Shown: positions 5,173 to 25,394 of the stretch, piece by piece | Position numbering within the stretch: position 1 is the stretch's first letter | Layout of the letters: each line of letters starts with the position of its first letter | NCBI RefSeq assembly: GCF_048403405.1 | Contig: NZ_CP183131.1 | DNA: 64,000 nt | Source: Escherichia coli | GTDB taxonomy: Bacteria > Pseudomonadota > Gammaproteobacteria > Enterobacterales > Enterobacteriaceae | Strand: one strand, 5' to 3' | Made by a program: the position numbers and the translations under genes | Notes under the pieces: model-generated | The model's database searches: none | The model's input: only the letters and a program-made list of their open reading frames with translations | What the model was told of the DNA's origin: nothing

Positions 5173-5265
5173 AGCCGCACAAATTTTAGCCATGGCTTTT
5201 CAGGAAGTCAGGGCTATCAGAATGGCCTTAGAAAGCCTAGTCAAAGAGCTGTCACGAGAACACCG

Positions 5266-6180
5266 TTAGCTTAGCGTACGATTTTTTCCGAATTCTGCGG
5301 TTCCCCCTCCAGGGAAGGATTCGATAGTGACTCCACCGAAGGTGCCAAGGATTTCCGATGCCGCTTTATCAGATCGAGTTTTGCGTTGTTCTGAGGCGTC
5401 AAAGTTACGAAGCAATTTGAGCTGAACATCCTTATCCTGGAGCACGATCAGGGGCATTGGCGCGGTAACGGTTTTGAGTACCCCTGCGGCCATGACGTTT
5501 GCCACCGGTTGAACCTTTACTTCCCTTCGCTCCCGGAGATAAGGCTCCGGGGTGCTGGCGATCTTCTGGATAAGCTGCTCCAGGGGAAGTTGATAGTCTG
5601 GCCCAGATCGCTCCAGCTCCTCTCTGATGCGTTGCAAAAGCTCCTCTTTTACGGGCTTCTTCAAGGAGTCCTTCCGTTGCCAGGTGAAGCGGATAGAGTC
5701 GATGTCGCCATTGGTATAGCACCGAATTTGTCTGTAAAGGTGGAGAGTCATGACACCAGGGCAGTCCGCTCGAAGTGCTTCAAACCTCTCTTGCCTGGTG
5801 GGGTACGTCGAGATAATGAACTCCTCGATACCAGCTTTGGCCGCGTTGATGCGTTCAACCGTCGCCGCAATTTCGTCAGCTACACCAATCCTGGAAGGGG
5901 AGAACCAGAGTACCCCCACGGTGCGCCTGGCAGACTTCTGCGAATAGTCTGGGTTGATGTGAAGATCTCTGTAGCTGTGCGCTGCCAGCTCAAGAGCTTC
6001 GCGCCCAGTTTGTTCAGTTACGACAATCTTGTTGACGGGCTCGTTCTCCATTCCTTTTCCGGTAGGAGGGATGGCCGCAACTTTTGCGTACCGTGGCGGT
6101 AGTCGTTTGATAAGAGAGGACAGGTTCGTTAAGTCGCGGCACATGGCCGAGAATTGTTCTGATATGAAGTTTTTAGCCAT
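5266..6180 (-). CDS. tus: Tus-like DNA replication terminus site-binding protein
   Basis: Similar to E. coli Tus over its length, e.g. VKVQPVANV..TAPMPLIVL vs VKVQPIARV..CPTPLIALI, and ..GVLWF../..LHLYR.. blocks. Confidence 0.8.
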   Translation of the reverse strand: MAKNFISEQFSAMCRDLTNLSSLIKRLPPRYAKVAAIPPTGKGMENEPVNKIVVTEQTGREALELAAHSYRDLHINPDYSQKSARRTVGVLWFSPSRIGVADEIAATVERINAAKAGIEEFIISTYPTRQERFEALRADCPGVMTLHLYRQIRCYTNGDIDSIRFTWQRKDSLKKPVKEELLQRIREELERSGPDYQLPLEQLIQKIASTPEPYLRERREVKVQPVANVMAAGVLKTVTAPMPLIVLQDKDVQLKLLRNFDASEQRKTRSDKAASEILGTFGGVTIESFPGGGTAEFGKNRTLS

Positions 6181-6237
6181 GCTGCCGCCTATGTGTGGGT
6201 TTGTTCTAACAGTTCATTGGTTACATAGTAGACAGAT

Positions 6238-6459
6238 TTAGACCATCATGCAACGAGGGGGAGGGGCAAGAATACGCCTCCGCTTCGCGTCGGCGGGTGC
6301 CCTGTTTGACCTTCGTGTGTGAGATTAGATTGAGAAAGAGAGAGAAAGAGAGAAAAAGAGAGAAAGAAGAAAAGCGCGGGGCAAGCCAGAAATGTGGCTG
6401 AGGGGGACTGCTGGGGTGGGGCTGGCACCCTCTATACCCCACTTTGCATGATGGTCTAA
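6238..6459. repeat. pair of perfect 16-bp inverted repeats (TTAGACCATCATGCAA) flanking ~190 bp
   Basis: 6238-6253 and 6444-6459 are exact reverse complements. The pair lies upstream of the tus-like gene. Confidence 0.8.
6332..6374 (+). repeat. 43-nt uninterrupted polypurine tract with mirror symmetry
   Basis: gagaaagagagagaaagagagaaaaagagagaaagaagaaaag. The first 19 nt form a perfect mirror repeat, which has H-DNA potential. Confidence 0.85.
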
Positions 6460-6504
6460 CTTTGTGGTTATAGGACGACTTTTAGAGTGCCTAGATTTGC
6501 TCGA

Positions 6505-6996
6505 TTAGGACAAATTTCGGTCCATCCACGCTGATTGGCGTAGCAGCGCGATGGCATCAGAAGGGGTAACTTTCCATGCGTTGGAAAGCTGGCGAACTGC
6601 GAAGACTGCGAGCTCCATTCGGTCGTCATCATTGATGAAATTCTGGAGCTGGTTTCCTCGCTCACTAAGGATGATCGCAACACCGGCCTTGCCGTTGTTG
6701 TAAACCGCAAAGCTCTTATTCTTCGCGTCGCCGTGATAGGAACCCTCAGCCTTGCTACGCAAACCAAAGAGAACGCTGCAAAACGCCGTCAGTTCGCCGC
6801 GAGTGAGCTGCACCGTGATCTTGCTTTTCCAGTCTGGGCTGGACCCCGATGCCCTGATCGGCGCAATCTCGATGCTGACCGTAGGATATTCACCTCTGGT
6901 TAGCGTGTGTTGCACATTCAGGCCGGTGCGTTTCGCGGGGTCCTTCTGCCAGTCTGAGAAAAATTTGAGACTTTCGCCGTAGGATTGTTCTGTCAT
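6505..6996 (-). CDS. hypothetical protein (163 aa)
   Basis: Its start overlaps the stop of the upstream exonuclease gene (ATGA). No family recognised. Confidence 0.65.
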   Translation of the reverse strand: MTEQSYGESLKFFSDWQKDPAKRTGLNVQHTLTRGEYPTVSIEIAPIRASGSSPDWKSKITVQLTRGELTAFCSVLFGLRSKAEGSYHGDAKNKSFAVYNNGKAGVAIILSERGNQLQNFINDDDRMELAVFAVRQLSNAWKVTPSDAIALLRQSAWMDRNLS

Positions 6997-7862
6997 TCCA
7001 AATTACCTTTGCTTTGAAGCTCCTGGAGCTGGACCACGAGGTCACGTTGGACTTTGGCTATCTCTGTCACCAAGTCGGCGGTGGCAATAGCGTCGGTCGC
7101 TGCTGAATGGGCTCGACCTTTCCAGCTCACACCTGCCTCGCAGGTGGCATCCGCAAGTGAGATTGTGCCGTGCCGGTTGGTTGAGCCAAAGGCATCAGCC
7201 GCCAGCTTCATCGCGCACAGACAGTTCTGCTCTTGCCACCAAGAGAGTTGGTCTCCAAATGCACTGGCTGTTTGCCTCAACATCCTACTGTCGAAACTGG
7301 AGTTAAATATCACCAGATGACGGCCCGACAAAAGCCGGGCGAGAGCTGGCGCAACTTGAGTCCACGTAGGCTCATTCGACAGCTCAGTCTCGGTGATGCC
7401 ATGAACACCCATTGCCTGAGGGTCTATTTCCACGGTTGGCCGTAATCTGGTGCAGAGGAGAACCGCGCCTCTGATGTCAGTAACAGCCAGCTCGATCACC
7501 TGGTCTCTTTCACCAAGTCCGGTCGTCTCGGTATCGAGAACCAGAGGTTCCAGAGCGACCCACCTTTGTGCCATGACAGAGGCCTTTGCCAGGTTGCTAC
7601 GCATTCTTGCCTTGACCGAAAGGATGGATTGCGCCCTTATTTGCTTTTGTGATGCCGGTGAACAACCCCTTCTCCGCATTGGTTGGCAATCTGCTATCCG
7701 GTACACTCCAAATTGGCCACCATACCCGTTTTTGTAGAACGAAACTGGCTCTACTCCTGGCTTAGGCTTCATCCGAAATTCGTCCCTGAGCCGTCCTTTT
7801 GAAAAGCACCTATCGGCTTTCATGGCTTCGGCTCTGGCAAGTTCGAGTTCTTCATCATTCAT
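6993..7862 (-). CDS. DEDDh (DnaQ-like) 3'-5' exonuclease with N-terminal extension
   Basis: Exo I motif LVLDTETTGL and Exo III motif HSAATDAIATADL. Confidence 0.8.
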   Translation of the reverse strand: MNDEELELARAEAMKADRCFSKGRLRDEFRMKPKPGVEPVSFYKNGYGGQFGVYRIADCQPMRRRGCSPASQKQIRAQSILSVKARMRSNLAKASVMAQRWVALEPLVLDTETTGLGERDQVIELAVTDIRGAVLLCTRLRPTVEIDPQAMGVHGITETELSNEPTWTQVAPALARLLSGRHLVIFNSSFDSRMLRQTASAFGDQLSWWQEQNCLCAMKLAADAFGSTNRHGTISLADATCEAGVSWKGRAHSAATDAIATADLVTEIAKVQRDLVVQLQELQSKGNLE

Positions 7863-24526: not shown

Positions 24527-24796
24527 CTACAGGTCACTTGGTACATACAGGTCATCTTTGATGGCAGAAAAATCGACAGGAGACTGGTCCCCATAGGTTC
24601 GATTCACGCCACCAGCATCATCGACACTGACAAAAACCGTGCGGAGTAAACCGCTGGGCTTTGCAGGGTAAACGATGCTGACATGCTGACCTTTGTACTG
24701 TTCTGACAAAGTGCTTTGAAGCTCATCAACCGAACGGAATTTCCGGTCGCGGCCAAAGTCCTTAATCTTGATGTCGCCAGGGATTGGATTAGTCAT
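24527..24796 (-). CDS. hypothetical protein (89 aa)
   Basis: Its ATG overlaps the stop of the HD-domain gene (GATGACTAA). Confidence 0.6.
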   Translation of the reverse strand: MTNPIPGDIKIKDFGRDRKFRSVDELQSTLSEQYKGQHVSIVYPAKPSGLLRTVFVSVDDAGGVNRTYGDQSPVDFSAIKDDLYVPSDL

Positions 24797-25394
24797 CGTT
24801 ACCCCCTGCCAGCAGTTTATCTACTGAATGGCCGAGTCCGTTACCAAACCATTTGTCCAGAGCGTCGATTTCCGGGAAGTCCGATTTCACCTGAGCAACA
24901 ACACGTTCCATTTTGCTGAGAGCATCCTGGAACTCAAGGCCATTACCTGCGGCCACCTCAAGTTTGCACTTGATGTAAGCGGAGTAGGTATCACAGGCCT
25001 TAACCAGTGATTGTTCATAGCCACCGGGAGCGAAGGCTATGGCGACTGCATCCTGGAGTTCTTCGGGAAGAGTCTGGATGAGTTTGTCCTCTGCGGCCTT
25101 TTCCAGTCGTTCAAACTCACGCTGCAAAACAGCGTTTGCTTTCTTGACCGGTGTTACAACATCCGAACAGAGAACCTCGGCTGCATCATGCAACGAAGCA
25201 TGAGCAAGCATGACTGCCAGATCCACCGACTTCCCTTGCTGAATGGCAATATTGCCAGCCAGGTAGGAAAGCAGGGTAACAACAGCGCTGTGTTCCAACA
25301 CAGACTCCGGTTGAACAGAGTGCATCAGTGACCAGCGTTTGATCAGGCGTTGGCGCAAGGCCAGAGCTAGAAAGCCGAAATTTGAATTAGACAT
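24789..25394 (-). CDS. HD-domain phosphohydrolase (YfbR-like 5'-deoxynucleotidase)
   Basis: H..HD..D pattern: EHSAVVTLL, SLHDAAEVLCSDVVTPVK. Confidence 0.75.
   Translation of the reverse strand: MSNSNFGFLALALRQRLIKRWSLMHSVQPESVLEHSAVVTLLSYLAGNIAIQQGKSVDLAVMLAHASLHDAAEVLCSDVVTPVKKANAVLQREFERLEKAAEDKLIQTLPEELQDAVAIAFAPGGYEQSLVKACDTYSAYIKCKLEVAAGNGLEFQDALSKMERVVAQVKSDFPEIDALDKWFGNGLGHSVDKLLAGGNDD

What the first reader, a model, noticed from the sequence alone, without database searches (positions are those of the whole stretch)
6181..6504. Tus-like gene preceded by an inverted-repeat pair, a Ter-core-like sequence and an H-DNA-type polypurine tract
**Three features upstream of the plasmid Tus homologue.**
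- GTTCTAAC lies at 6203-6210, 23 bp from the start codon. It differs by one base from the E. coli Ter core GTTGTAAC. In E. coli, TerB lies in the tus promoter.
- Two perfect 16-bp inverted repeats, TTAGACCATCATGCAA, lie at 6238-6253 and 6444-6459.
- Between the repeats is a 43-nt pure polypurine run (6332-6374) with a 19-nt perfect mirror repeat.

**Why this matters.** Oppositely oriented protein-binding sites and triplex-forming tracts are both replication-fork barriers. This may be the plasmid's replication terminus or fork trap, and possibly an autoregulatory site for tus.
Basis: partly seen in the sequence, partly recalled or inferred. Interest (0 to 1): 0.5.

Follow-up and report, generated by a model that had tools for sequence, protein, structure and literature searches.

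The report
Candidate fork trap beside plasmid tus

Summary
**Verdict: partly supported. The likely Ter sites are the inverted-repeat arms, not GTTCTAAC.**

- **Context.** The window is IncC plasmid backbone. ORF 5266-6180(-) is a real Tus homologue (Pfam Ter, E=3e-46).
- **Observation.** All three features are at the stated coordinates.
  - GTTCTAAC is not above chance: 56 one-mismatch hits in the window. It is not conserved in relatives.
  - The arms, core GCATGATGGTCTAA, are invariant in eight plasmids of four lineages (IncC, IncA, Aeromonas, Vibrio pAQU-type). Tus itself falls to 48.6% identity across them.
  - Homology stops exactly at the outer edge of the distal arm. The core occurs nowhere else in three complete plasmids.
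- **Reading.**
  - The proximal arm covers the -35 and spacer of a weak, positionally conserved promoter (TTGCAT-17-TAnnnT).
  - The arms share G-Y-A-T-G-W-T-G with E. coli Ter and with a Ter-like motif I found inverted upstream of Pseudoalteromonas tus. That polarity turns both blocking faces inward, which is a trap.
  - GC skew changes near the module, about 16 kb (IncC) to 18 kb (V. harveyi) from the origin.
- **GA tract.** It is conserved and varies in 10-bp units. Its role is unresolved.
- **Limits.** No binding or fork-arrest data exist. I found no paper describing this.

The parts
5266..6180 (-). tus homologue. Native 291 codons are 5308-6180. A 13-codon extension plus a new stop (5266-5307) comes from a transposon end.
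   Evidence: Pfam Ter PF05472, E=3.4e-46. 291/291 identical to intact IncC Tus WP_001097010. phmmer to E. coli Tus structures 1ECR/2I06, E=2e-21. Aligned lock-pocket residues: I79, F140 and G149 kept, H144 becomes R.
5270..5306 (.). Terminal inverted repeat of a Tn1721-type transposon abutting the last tus codon. Not part of the module, but it alters the tus 3' end.
   Evidence: Sequence read. The ORF runs 13 codons past the native end. PMC8708245 describes a Tn1721-derived blaCTX-M-14 structure inserted into the IncA/C tus gene. The MCP fragment, ISEcp1 fragment and blaCTX-M-14 lie to the left.
   Evidence: Partly conserved in IncC, IncA and Vibrio (TGTAAYCAATGAnCnGTnAGAACAA) but not in Aeromonas. 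The 8-mer is at chance level.
6225..6230 (-). Putative -10 hexamer TACTAT of the tus promoter.
   Evidence: Read from the sequence. A TAnnnT hexamer lies 17 nt after TTGCAT in all four lineages: TACTAT, TACGAT, TATTCT, TAAAAT. Below the threshold of the promoter scanner.
6238..6253 (-). Proximal arm, TTGCATGATGGTCTAA on the tus strand. Candidate Ter site and tus operator. Its TTGCAT (6248-6253) is the putative -35.
   Evidence: Perfect inverted repeat with 6444-6459. The 14-bp core is invariant in all eight plasmids examined. It ends 49-57 bp before the ATG in all of them. It carries GCATGATG, which fits G-Y-A-T-G-W-T-G.
6332..6374 (+). Purine tract (pyrimidine on the tus strand). 10-bp unit, 25-nt perfect mirror repeat, A-runs about every 10 bp.
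   Evidence: A 27-45-nt tract is present between the arms in all lineages. Intergenic length among IncC plasmids is 316/324/326/336/356/386 bp; in the one pair aligned (324 vs 326) the difference lies in this tract.
6444..6459 (+). Distal arm, TTGCATGATGGTCTAA on the + strand. Candidate second Ter site in opposite orientation. The inner flank TATACCCC lies at 6433-6440.
   Evidence: Homology among IncC, IncA and Aeromonas plasmids ends exactly at its outer edge, beyond which different genes follow.
6505..6996 (-). Upstream 163-aa gene, last gene of the int-exonuclease-orf163 run. It is the boundary of the module, not part of it.
   Evidence: Replaced by merR, a hypothetical gene, CoiA or a divergent restriction-subunit gene in other lineages.

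Best explanation
**What it is.** Region 6225-6465 together with tus forms one cassette. The two inverted arms (core GCATGATGGTCTAA, each asymmetric) are the Ter sites of the plasmid's own Tus protein.

**How it would work.**
- One Tus monomer binds each arm.
- The fork-blocking (non-permissive) faces point inward. A fork from either side passes the first arm and is stopped at the second, so replication ends inside a roughly 200-bp trap.
- The trap lies about 16 kb (IncC) to 18 kb (V. harveyi) from oriV. One fork therefore copies roughly 88% of the plasmid and the other copies the short arc, so replication is nearly unidirectional, as in R1 and the Pseudoalteromonas chromids.
- The proximal arm overlaps the -35 and spacer of the tus promoter. 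Tus bound there would also repress its own gene, as TerB does in E. coli.
- The conserved purine/pyrimidine tract in the middle belongs to the cassette, but its role is undecided.

**Shown here.** The anatomy, the conservation pattern, the exclusive linkage to tus, the uniqueness of the arms, and the skew change near the module.

**Inferred.** Tus binding, the polarity of the sites, fork arrest and autoregulation.
For: **1. Tus family membership.**
- Pfam Ter, E=3e-46.
- Aligned equivalents of E49, I79, K89, R93, F140, G149, W172, K175 and R232 are conserved. R198 aligns with R only in the pairwise alignment; that region is gapped in the multiple alignment.

**2. Conservation of the arms.**
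- The 14-bp core is identical in both arms of all eight plasmids examined: three IncC, two IncA, two Aeromonas salmonicida, and the V. harveyi pAQU-type p1.
- Tus itself drops to 67.8% and 48.6% identity, and the rest of the spacer diverges, including an indel of about 60-85 bp.
- This mirrors the strictly conserved 12-bp Ter core across Enterobacterales whose Tus proteins are 46-59% identical (PMC8707476).

**3. Linkage to tus only.**
- Homology ends at the outer edge of the distal arm, and the upstream neighbour differs between lineages.
- tus is the only gene always linked to the module.

**4. Not a dispersed repeat.**
- The core occurs exactly twice in the window, in complete pSH163_135 and in V. 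harveyi p1.
- A scan of 185,579 genomes gave 3 single hits. About 17 are expected by chance (my arithmetic for 18 specified bases).

**5. Sequence read, not pairing.** Each arm is asymmetric and invariant, with no compensatory changes. That fits recognition by a monomeric protein.

**6. No looping constraint.** Arm spacing is 200-213 bp or 268-269 bp, with no common helical phase. The sites appear to act independently.

**7. Polarity.**
- TerB lies on the tus coding strand 10 bp before the ATG.
- The arms carry GCATGATG in the same orientation relative to tus as GTATGTTG in TerB.
- Pseudoalteromonas tus genes carry AGTA(T/A/C)GATGTGTTC, and three of the four examined have an inverted pair with the proximal copy in TerB orientation.
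- The pattern GYATGWTG occurs only 13 times in 128 kb of strand.

**8. Promoter overlap.** TTGCAT-17-TAnnnT lies at the proximal arm in all lineages.

**9. GC skew.**
- In pSH163_135 the cumulative skew has a local maximum at about 119.5 kb. The module is at 119,761-119,984 and repA at 1,139-2,239.
- Plus-strand genes between tus and oriV have lower skew than other plus-strand genes:
  - IncC p=0.021.
  - V. harveyi p=0.00065, and p=0.0048 at third codon positions.
  - A. salmonicida p=0.016.

**10. Precedent.**
- Both R6K forks are blocked at one specific terminus.
- R1 uses a termination system to enforce unidirectional replication.
- Pseudoalteromonas chromids, with tus beside ori2, replicate unidirectionally (PMC10331603; PMC7858055).
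Against: - **No direct data.** There is no binding or fork-arrest experiment.
- **Weak similarity to E. coli Ter.** Taken as whole sites, the arms resemble Ter no better than chance (8/15 to the core). The shared 8-mer pattern was defined after seeing the sequences.
- **Lock pocket.** Pocket residue H144 is R in the IncC, IncA and Aeromonas proteins. It is H in Vibrio.
- **Weak promoter.** The match to the sigma-70 consensus is only 7/12, below the scanner's threshold.
- **Skew evidence is modest.**
  - It rests on the same orthologous genes (uvrD, traFHG) in all three plasmids.
  - The third-position test in IncC is not significant (p=0.12).
  - The V. harveyi minimum-skew arc starts 4.5 kb before the module.
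  - In pSH163_135 the global minimum-skew arc is a rearranged region.
- **Transcription into the trap.** The upstream operon reads into the distal arm with no recognisable intrinsic terminator. From my own knowledge, transcription through a Ter site can dislodge Tus.
- **Tolerated insertions.** Natural plasmids tolerate a transposon end at the tus stop codon and an insertion between the -10 and tus. The system is probably not essential.
- **Another binder is possible.** A different protein could account for the invariance of the arms.
Confidence: 0.55

Rival explanations
1. The arms are purely transcriptional operators. Tus, or another plasmid or host regulator, binds them to control tus and perhaps to insulate it from the upstream operon. 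No replication forks are arrested.
For: - The proximal arm overlaps the putative -35 and spacer at a conserved distance from the ATG.
- Natural insertions that disturb tus are tolerated.
- Similarity to E. coli Ter is not significant over the whole site.
Against: - A second, identical, inverted site 200-270 bp away with no conserved helical phase is hard to explain for a simple repressor.
- Each arm is asymmetric, unlike typical dimer operators.
- The only gene always linked to the arms belongs to a family known solely as a polar fork-arrest protein.
- The skew change near the module is left unexplained.
Confidence: 0.2
2. The purine/pyrimidine mirror-repeat tract forms H-DNA (an intramolecular triplex) and is itself a protein-independent fork barrier or pause site inside the region.
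For: - Perfect mirror repeats of 25 nt and 19 nt lie within a 43-nt pure purine run.
- A tract with the core TCTCTCTTTTTCTCTCT on the tus strand is kept in all four lineages while the flanking spacer diverges.
Against: - The mirror symmetry follows automatically from tandem copies of a 10-bp unit that is itself symmetric.
- The intergenic length varies from -10 to +60 bp among natural IncC plasmids.
- Pseudoalteromonas tus loci have inverted Ter-like sites with an AT-rich spacer and no such tract.
- Other roles fit equally well:
  - Phased A-runs could give a static bend.
  - The tus-strand spacer is C-rich and G-poor, C/G 1.4-2.0, which could be a Rho loading site for read-through transcripts.
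Confidence: 0.12
3. GTTCTAAC at 6203-6210 is the functional Ter core, bound by the plasmid Tus or the host Tus, as TerB is in the E. coli tus promoter.
For: - One mismatch to GTTGTAAC.
- A G at the position equivalent to G6.
- It lies between the -10 and the ATG, roughly where TerB lies in E. coli.
- The leader is fairly conserved between IncC, IncA and Vibrio.
Against: - There are 56 equally good matches in the window.
- The match to TerB is 11/23, no better than shuffles.
- It varies between lineages and is lost in Aeromonas (GTACCGAT).
- Its best-matching orientation is opposite to that of TerB relative to tus.
- The base-reading strand of the plasmid Tus differs from E. coli: FTWQRKDSL against FGWANKHII.
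Confidence: 0.05
4. The arms are the terminal inverted repeats of a miniature transposable element, or a relic of one, that landed upstream of tus.
For: A 222-bp unit bounded by perfect 16-bp inverted repeats has the look of a MITE.
Against: - There is one copy per plasmid and none elsewhere.
- There is no target-site duplication: the flanks are ACAGAT and CTTTGT.
- It is always at the same place relative to tus across lineages whose Tus proteins are 48-100% identical.
- The interior evolves freely while the tract and arms are fixed.
Confidence: 0.02
5. The arms pair in a transcript or in transferred single-stranded DNA, closing a long-range stem of a structured RNA or an ssDNA element.
For: Folding closes the arms into a 16-bp stem. 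Z-scores are -4.3 (ssDNA) and -2.9 (tus-sense RNA).
Against: - The z-scores come from the arms alone. The interior is not consistently structured, and the tract is left unpaired.
- The + strand RNA has z=-1.0.
- There is no Rfam match at E<=1.
- There are no compensatory substitutions in 16 pairs despite saturating divergence.
- A 60-85-bp indel is tolerated in the interior.
- If the promoter assignment is right, the region lies upstream of the tus transcription start.
Confidence: 0.04

Closest known systems
E. coli Tus-TerB at the tus promoter (autoregulated, polar fork arrest)
   Same: - The protein belongs to the same family.
- An asymmetric site lies just upstream of tus on the coding strand, with the G6-type end pointing away from the gene.
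- The site overlaps the promoter, so autoregulation is expected (PMC10331603).
   Different: - The site sequence differs: GCATGATGGTCTAA against GTATGTTGTAACTAA.
- It sits over the -35 and spacer, 57 bp from the ATG, rather than 10 bp from it.
- The opposing site is 200 bp away instead of hundreds of kb.
- The replicon is a plasmid that encodes its own Tus.
R6K plasmid terminus
   Same: A specific plasmid terminus blocks both the clockwise and the counter-clockwise fork (PMC10331603). From my own knowledge (Horiuchi and Hidaka 1988), it is a pair of inverted Ter sites a short distance apart.
   Different: R6K uses the host Tus and canonical GTTGTAAC-type sites. It carries no tus gene and, as far as I know, no purine tract.
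R1-type plasmids and Pseudoalteromonas chromids: a trap near the origin enforcing unidirectional replication
   Same: The terminus is close to the origin. Pseudoalteromonas chromids carry tus beside the origin and replicate unidirectionally, as shown experimentally (PMC7858055; PMC10331603). I also found inverted Ter-like sites directly upstream of Pseudoalteromonas tus.
   Different: - R1 relies on the host Tus.
- In IncC and pAQU-type plasmids the module is about 16-18 kb from oriV rather than adjacent to it.
- The replication direction of IncC is inferred here from skew only.
Type I fork trap of Edwardsiella and Dickeya (Toft et al. 2021)
   Same: A single Ter site next to tus both bounds the trap and regulates tus (PMC8707476; PMC10331603).
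   Different: That trap is chromosomal. The opposing Ter is far away, and the core is canonical.
H-DNA-forming homopurine mirror repeats
   Same: Pure purine/pyrimidine mirror repeats of 19-25 nt are present.
   Different: No evidence of triplex formation. The symmetry is a by-product of a 10-bp tandem unit.

Membership tests
Tus-Ter replication fork trap | A Tus-family (PF05472) protein is encoded. | tested here: met
   E=3.4e-46 over residues 6-273. phmmer to PDB 1ECR/2I06 gives E=2e-21.
Tus-Ter replication fork trap | The cytosine-lock pocket and key DNA-contact residues are conserved (E. coli I79, F140, H144, G149; E49, R198). | tested here: inconclusive
   I79, F140, G149 and E49 are kept. 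H144 is R in IncC, IncA and Aeromonas, and H in Vibrio. R198 aligns with R only in the pairwise alignment, not in the gapped multiple alignment. The list of pocket residues is from my own knowledge of Mulcair et al. 2006.
Tus-Ter replication fork trap | Asymmetric Ter sites about 23 bp long with a conserved core and a G-C pair at position 6. | tested here: inconclusive
   The arms are asymmetric with a 14-bp invariant core. The whole-site match to the E. coli Ter core is at chance level. They share G-Y-A-T-G-W-T-G with TerB and the Pseudoalteromonas motif.
Tus-Ter replication fork trap | Oppositely oriented sites with the non-permissive faces inward. | tested here: inconclusive
   The opposite orientation is shown. 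The inward polarity rests on the weak homology-based assignment of position 6.
Tus-Ter replication fork trap | The sites lie at the replication terminus. | tested here: inconclusive
   GC skew changes at or near the module in three lineages: p=0.021, 0.00065 and 0.016. The tests share the same orthologous genes, and there is no marker-frequency data.
Tus-Ter replication fork trap | Tus binds the sites and arrests DnaB or forks in a polar way. | not testable with these tools
   Needs EMSA or ChIP, 2D gels, and a helicase assay.
Ter site in the tus promoter (autoregulation) | The site overlaps the tus promoter. | tested here: inconclusive
   The arm covers the -35 and spacer of TTGCAT-17-TACTAT, and the arrangement is positionally conserved. 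The promoter matches the consensus at 7/12 and is not called by the scanner. No transcription start-site data are available.
Canonical E. coli-type Ter (GTTGTAAC core) | A match to AGNATGTTGTAACTAA with G6. | tested here: not met
   GTTCTAAC at 6203 matches TerB at 11/23. No position in 6181-6504 exceeds shuffles.
MITE or other small transposable element | Terminal inverted repeats plus a target-site duplication plus multiple dispersed copies. | tested here: not met
   One copy per plasmid. No duplication of the flanks. The genome scan is at chance level.
H-DNA (intramolecular triplex) element | A homopurine/homopyrimidine mirror repeat. | tested here: met
   Perfect mirror repeats of 25 nt and 19 nt in a 43-nt purine run.
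H-DNA (intramolecular triplex) element | A triplex actually forms under physiological supercoiling and impedes forks. | not testable with these tools
   Needs chemical or enzymatic probing and 2D gels.
Known structured RNA families | A match to an Rfam covariance model, or covariation. | tested here: not met
   No Rfam match at E<=1. The arms are invariant, so there is no covariation.

The most novel reading that the evidence does not exclude
tus and its upstream 220-290 bp form a portable, self-contained fork-trap cassette with four parts: a terminator protein, an autoregulatory Ter site, an inverted second Ter site, and a conserved purine/pyrimidine tract at the centre of the trap.

This cassette would fix the terminus of A/C-type and pAQU-type conjugative plasmids about 16-18 kb from oriV, making them replicate almost unidirectionally. 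It could be the plasmid-borne ancestral form from which chromosomal Tus-Ter traps were domesticated.

The tract would be a second functional element, for example a protein-independent pause or fork-merging zone, or a Rho-dependent insulator that shields the Tus-Ter complex from read-through transcription.
Probability: 0.35. Interest if true: 0.75.

Novelty: new variant of a known kind. Interest (0 to 1): 0.6.

Why it matters
- **Clinical relevance.** IncC/IncA plasmids are major carriers of multidrug resistance. Their tus gene is routinely annotated, yet I found no paper identifying its Ter sites or the plasmid terminus.
- **Evolutionary question.** Galli et al. 2019 proposed that chromosomal Tus-Ter was domesticated from plasmids. 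What the plasmid system looks like has not been described in the papers I could search.
- **A concrete, testable candidate.** A 14-bp core could be tested with a gel shift, one ChIP experiment or a sequencing-depth profile.
- **A related open item.** The same reasoning yields a candidate for the unidentified Ter sites of Pseudoalteromonas chromids, marked with a question mark in a 2023 review and not found with the E. coli consensus.
- **If confirmed.** It would show that a complete fork trap can be a portable unit of about 1.2 kb. It would also explain the strong one-way gene orientation and skew of these plasmids.

Tried and rejected
- **Matching to E. coli TerB.** I scored the 23-mer and the 15-mer core across 6181-6504. 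Nothing exceeded shuffles, so I dropped E. coli-type similarity as evidence for any site.
- **Exact GTTGTAAC cores in the window.** There are three. Only 25153-25160(-) has an extended match, and it lacks positions 18-20. I treated it as a side note.
- **Promoter and terminator scanner.** No calls in 6100-6600. The promoter proposal therefore rests only on positional conservation.
- **Rfam and folding.** No Rfam family at E<=1. Single-strand folding showed only the trivial arm-arm stem.
- **Dispersed repeat or MITE.** Rejected by the window scan, whole-plasmid scans and a genome-collection scan.
- **DNA looping between arms.** Rejected because the spacing is 200, 208, 210, 213 or 268-269 bp, with no common phase.
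- **Minimum-sum skew arc.**
  - In pSH163_135 it picked a rearranged, duplicated resistance region rather than the backbone. I therefore used local cumulative skew and gene-level tests.
  - In V. harveyi its boundary fell 4.5 kb before the module, at a block of opposite-strand accessory genes.
- **Other Tus clades.** The IncT, Proteus, Citrobacter and Providencia loci have no inverted pair near tus. The module is therefore specific to the A/C, Aeromonas and pAQU clade, and by analogy Pseudoalteromonas.
- **Literature.** Searches for the arm sequence, IncC tus/Ter, and the IncC oriV or replication direction returned nothing relevant.
Full report
**Context**

The window is IncC (IncA/C2) plasmid backbone.
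- Bases 5200-7000 are 100% identical to K. pneumoniae plasmid pKP22-5. About 890 PLSDB records hold most of that stretch.
- ORF 5266-6180(-) is a real Tus homologue: Pfam Ter PF05472, E=3.4e-46, and E=2e-21 to the E. coli Tus crystal-structure sequences.
- Its 291 native residues are identical to intact IncC Tus. The stop codon has been replaced by the end of a Tn1721-type structure, which adds 13 residues.
  - An insertion of this kind is described in PMC8708245.
  - The truncated MCP gene, the ISEcp1 fragment and blaCTX-M-14 to the left fit that description.
- Both flanking genes are on the minus strand. Region 6181-6504 therefore lies downstream of a 163-aa gene and upstream of tus.

**Checking the observation**

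All coordinates are right.
- The inverted repeat is perfect over 16 bp and continues to 29 nt at 86%.
- The purine run is 43 nt, has a 10-bp unit, and contains a 25-nt perfect mirror repeat as well as the 19-nt one reported.
- Both features are far beyond chance.
- GTTCTAAC is not beyond chance.
  - One-mismatch versions of GTTGTAAC occur 56 times in the window.
  - The surrounding 23-mer matches TerB at 11/23.
  - No position in the intergenic region matches TerB, or its 15-bp core, better than shuffled sequence does.

**What relatives show**

I aligned the region with three other lineages.
- IncA plasmids, and Aeromonas salmonicida plasmids whose Tus is 67.8% identical to the IncC protein.
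- A Vibrio harveyi pAQU-type plasmid, Tus 48.6% identical.

All have the same architecture.
- **Order of parts.** Distal arm, variable spacer containing a 27-45-nt pyrimidine tract on the tus strand, proximal arm, then 49-57 bp to the ATG.
- **Arms.** The 14-bp core GCATGATGGTCTAA is identical in both arms of all eight plasmids. An inner-flank motif, TATACCCC plus 3 nt, recurs at most arms.
- **Spacer.** The rest of the spacer diverges and tolerates an indel of about 60-85 bp.
- **Boundary.** Homology stops exactly at the outer edge of the distal arm. Beyond it lie different genes: orf163, merR, a hypothetical gene, CoiA, or a divergent restriction-subunit gene. tus is the only constant neighbour.
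- **Uniqueness.** The core occurs only at these two places in the window, in a complete IncC plasmid and in the Vibrio plasmid. A scan of one genome per species found three single hits, which is at or below chance.

What this excludes:
- A MITE is excluded.
- A long-range RNA stem is unlikely, because there are no compensatory changes and no Rfam match.
- A phase-dependent repressor loop is unlikely, because arm spacing is 200-213 or 268-269 bp.

GTTCTAAC changes to GTTCCAAC (IncA), GTTCTGAC (Vibrio) and GTACCGAT (Aeromonas).

**Promoter**

- On the tus strand the proximal arm begins with TTGCAT. Exactly 17 nt later there is a TAnnnT hexamer in every lineage: TACTAT, TACGAT, TATTCT, TAAAAT.
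- The match to the consensus is weak (7/12) and the scanner does not call it. The assignment therefore rests on positional conservation only.
- If it is right, a protein on the proximal arm would occlude the -35 and spacer.

**Relation to known Ter sites and polarity**

- In E. coli K-12, TerB (AATAAGTATGTTGTAACTAAAGT) lies on the tus coding strand 10 bp before the ATG.
- It is established knowledge that TerB stops clockwise forks, that tus is transcribed clockwise, and that the G-C(6) end is the blocking face. The blocking face therefore points away from tus.
- While checking other Tus clades I found a motif upstream of tus in four Pseudoalteromonas chromids whose Tus proteins are as little as about 51% identical (to the CF6-2 query): AGTA(T/A/C)GATGTGTTC.
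  - In three of the four it forms inverted pairs directly upstream of tus, with the proximal copy in TerB orientation.
  - The motif shares AGTATG.TGT with E. coli Ter.
  - It shares G-Y-ATGATG with the IncC arms.
- The pattern G-Y-A-T-G-W-T-G links all three. It occurs only 13 times in the window on both strands. It was, however, defined after seeing the sequences.
- Taking that G as position 6, both IncC arms have their blocking faces inward. Forks can enter the roughly 200-bp interval but cannot leave it.
- The plasmid Tus keeps the aligned equivalents of I79, F140, G149, E49, K89, R93, W172, K175 and R232.
  - R198 aligns with R only in the pairwise alignment.
  - H144 is R in IncC and H in Vibrio.
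  - The base-reading strand differs from E. coli. That fits a different core sequence.

**Is it at the terminus?**

*IncC (pSH163_135).* Nearly all backbone genes point the same way.
- Cumulative GC skew rises from the repA region (1.1-2.2 kb) to a local maximum at about 119.5 kb. The module lies at 119,761-119,984. The skew then falls over the 16 kb back to oriV, although genes there keep the same orientation.
- Same-strand genes in that arc have lower skew than the rest (p=0.021). At third codon positions the difference is not significant (p=0.12).

*V. harveyi plasmid.*
- Skew is +0.08 to +0.15 around most of the circle and about zero or negative from 54.8 to 77.8 kb.
- The module is at 59.3 kb, and mobI (75.5-76.1 kb) marks the presumed origin region at about 76-78 kb.
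- The gene-level test gives p=0.00065, and p=0.0048 at third codon positions.

*A. salmonicida plasmid.* This plasmid is heavily rearranged but shows the same contrast (p=0.016).

*Caveats.*
- The same orthologous genes populate the arc in all three plasmids.
- The boundaries are blurred by accessory DNA.
- Skew is only a proxy for replication direction.

*Reading.* The pattern fits an asymmetric terminus at the module, with one fork copying roughly 88% of the plasmid. It resembles R1 and the Pseudoalteromonas chromids, where tus sits by the origin and unidirectional replication has been shown by sequencing depth (PMC7858055; PMC10331603).

**The purine tract**

- It is conserved in all lineages. 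The common core on the tus strand is TCTCTCTTTTTCTCTCT.
- Among IncC plasmids the intergenic region is 316, 324, 326, 336, 356 or 386 bp long, mostly steps of about 10 bp. Where I aligned two variants (324 vs 326), the difference lies in the tract. This window is a 2-bp-shorter variant of the common 326-bp form.
- Mirror symmetry, and so H-DNA potential, is present. It follows automatically from tandem copies of a symmetric unit.
- Alternative roles:
  - Phased A-runs could give a static bend.
  - The tus-sense spacer is C-rich and G-poor, C/G 1.4-2.0. It could load Rho onto read-through transcripts from the upstream operon, which has no recognisable intrinsic terminator.
- Pseudoalteromonas lacks such a tract, so it is not a general requirement of a tus-linked trap.
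- I cannot decide between these roles.

**Conclusion**

- The most likely reading (about 0.55) is a compact, self-encoded Tus-Ter fork trap whose proximal site doubles as the tus operator.
- The main rival (about 0.2) is regulation without fork arrest.
The emphasis on GTTCTAAC is not, and the H-DNA proposal remains open.
- Plasmid-borne tus genes are known and are thought to be the source of chromosomal Tus (PMC6549158). I found no description of their Ter sites.
- I therefore rate this a new variant of a known kind, of moderate to good interest, and cheaply testable.

Noticed in passing
L012:1262-1497; L027 and L029 within 130 nt upstream of tus; L028: Pseudoalteromonas chromids carry a conserved motif, AGTA(T/A/C)GATGTGTTC, as inverted copies directly upstream of tus. 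The proximal copy has TerB orientation in three of four species. The motif shares AGTATG.TGT with E. coli Ter. Published work says the Ter sites of these chromids are unidentified (PMC7858055; PMC10331603), so this is a candidate. In P. piscicida both copies found have the same orientation.
   Followed up: partly
window 25146-25168 (-): TGTTCGGATGTTGTAACACCGGT has G at position 6 plus the 11-bp E. coli Ter core GATGTTGTAAC. It lies inside ORF 24789-25394(-) and lacks the TAA at positions 18-20. About 0.03 such matches are expected in the window. It is oriented to block leftward-moving forks if a host Tus bound it.
   Followed up: no
window 5266-5307: The tus stop codon is replaced by the terminal repeat of a Tn1721-type structure (MCP fragment, ISEcp1 fragment and IS903B-blaCTX-M-14 to the left). 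This gives Tus a 13-residue C-terminal extension. The lineage is common in Klebsiella plasmids, so the extension is tolerated.
   Followed up: partly
L026:1254-1290 (V. vulnificus pVVS1-per1): A Tn3-family transposon end is inserted between the putative -10 and the tus leader. It separates both arms and the promoter from whatever lies beyond, and is a natural disruption of the cassette.
   Followed up: no
L008, L009, L010 (IncT, Proteus and Citrobacter plasmids), about 30-60 nt upstream of tus: These more distant tus genes (35-44% identity) have umuDC beside them (L008, L010). They have no inverted pair. Instead they carry a CTG/ATG-N10-CAG element resembling a LexA box; in L009 and L010 (not L008) it overlaps an AGTATG Ter-like half-site. 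tus may be SOS-regulated there, or these may be their Ter sites.
   Followed up: no
L011:1440-1470 (Providencia plasmid): GTATGTTGGCATAT lies about 50 nt upstream of tus on the coding strand. Its first 8 nt are identical to E. coli Ter positions 6-13. Over 17 nt (with the two preceding T's) it matches the IncC arm at 11 positions, so it may be an intermediate form.
   Followed up: no
window 6332-6374 and IncC relatives: The intergenic region is 316-386 bp long across IncC plasmids, mostly in steps of about 10 bp, which fits copy-number change of the tract's 10-bp unit. This could serve as a typing marker. This window has a rare 2-bp-shorter form.
   Followed up: partly
pSH163_135 (L016-L018) and V. 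harveyi p1 (L021-L023), whole plasmids: Almost all backbone genes of A/C-type and pAQU-type plasmids point the same way round the circle, with strongly positive GC skew except in the 16-20 kb between tus and oriV. This suggests near-unidirectional replication co-oriented with transcription.
   Followed up: partly
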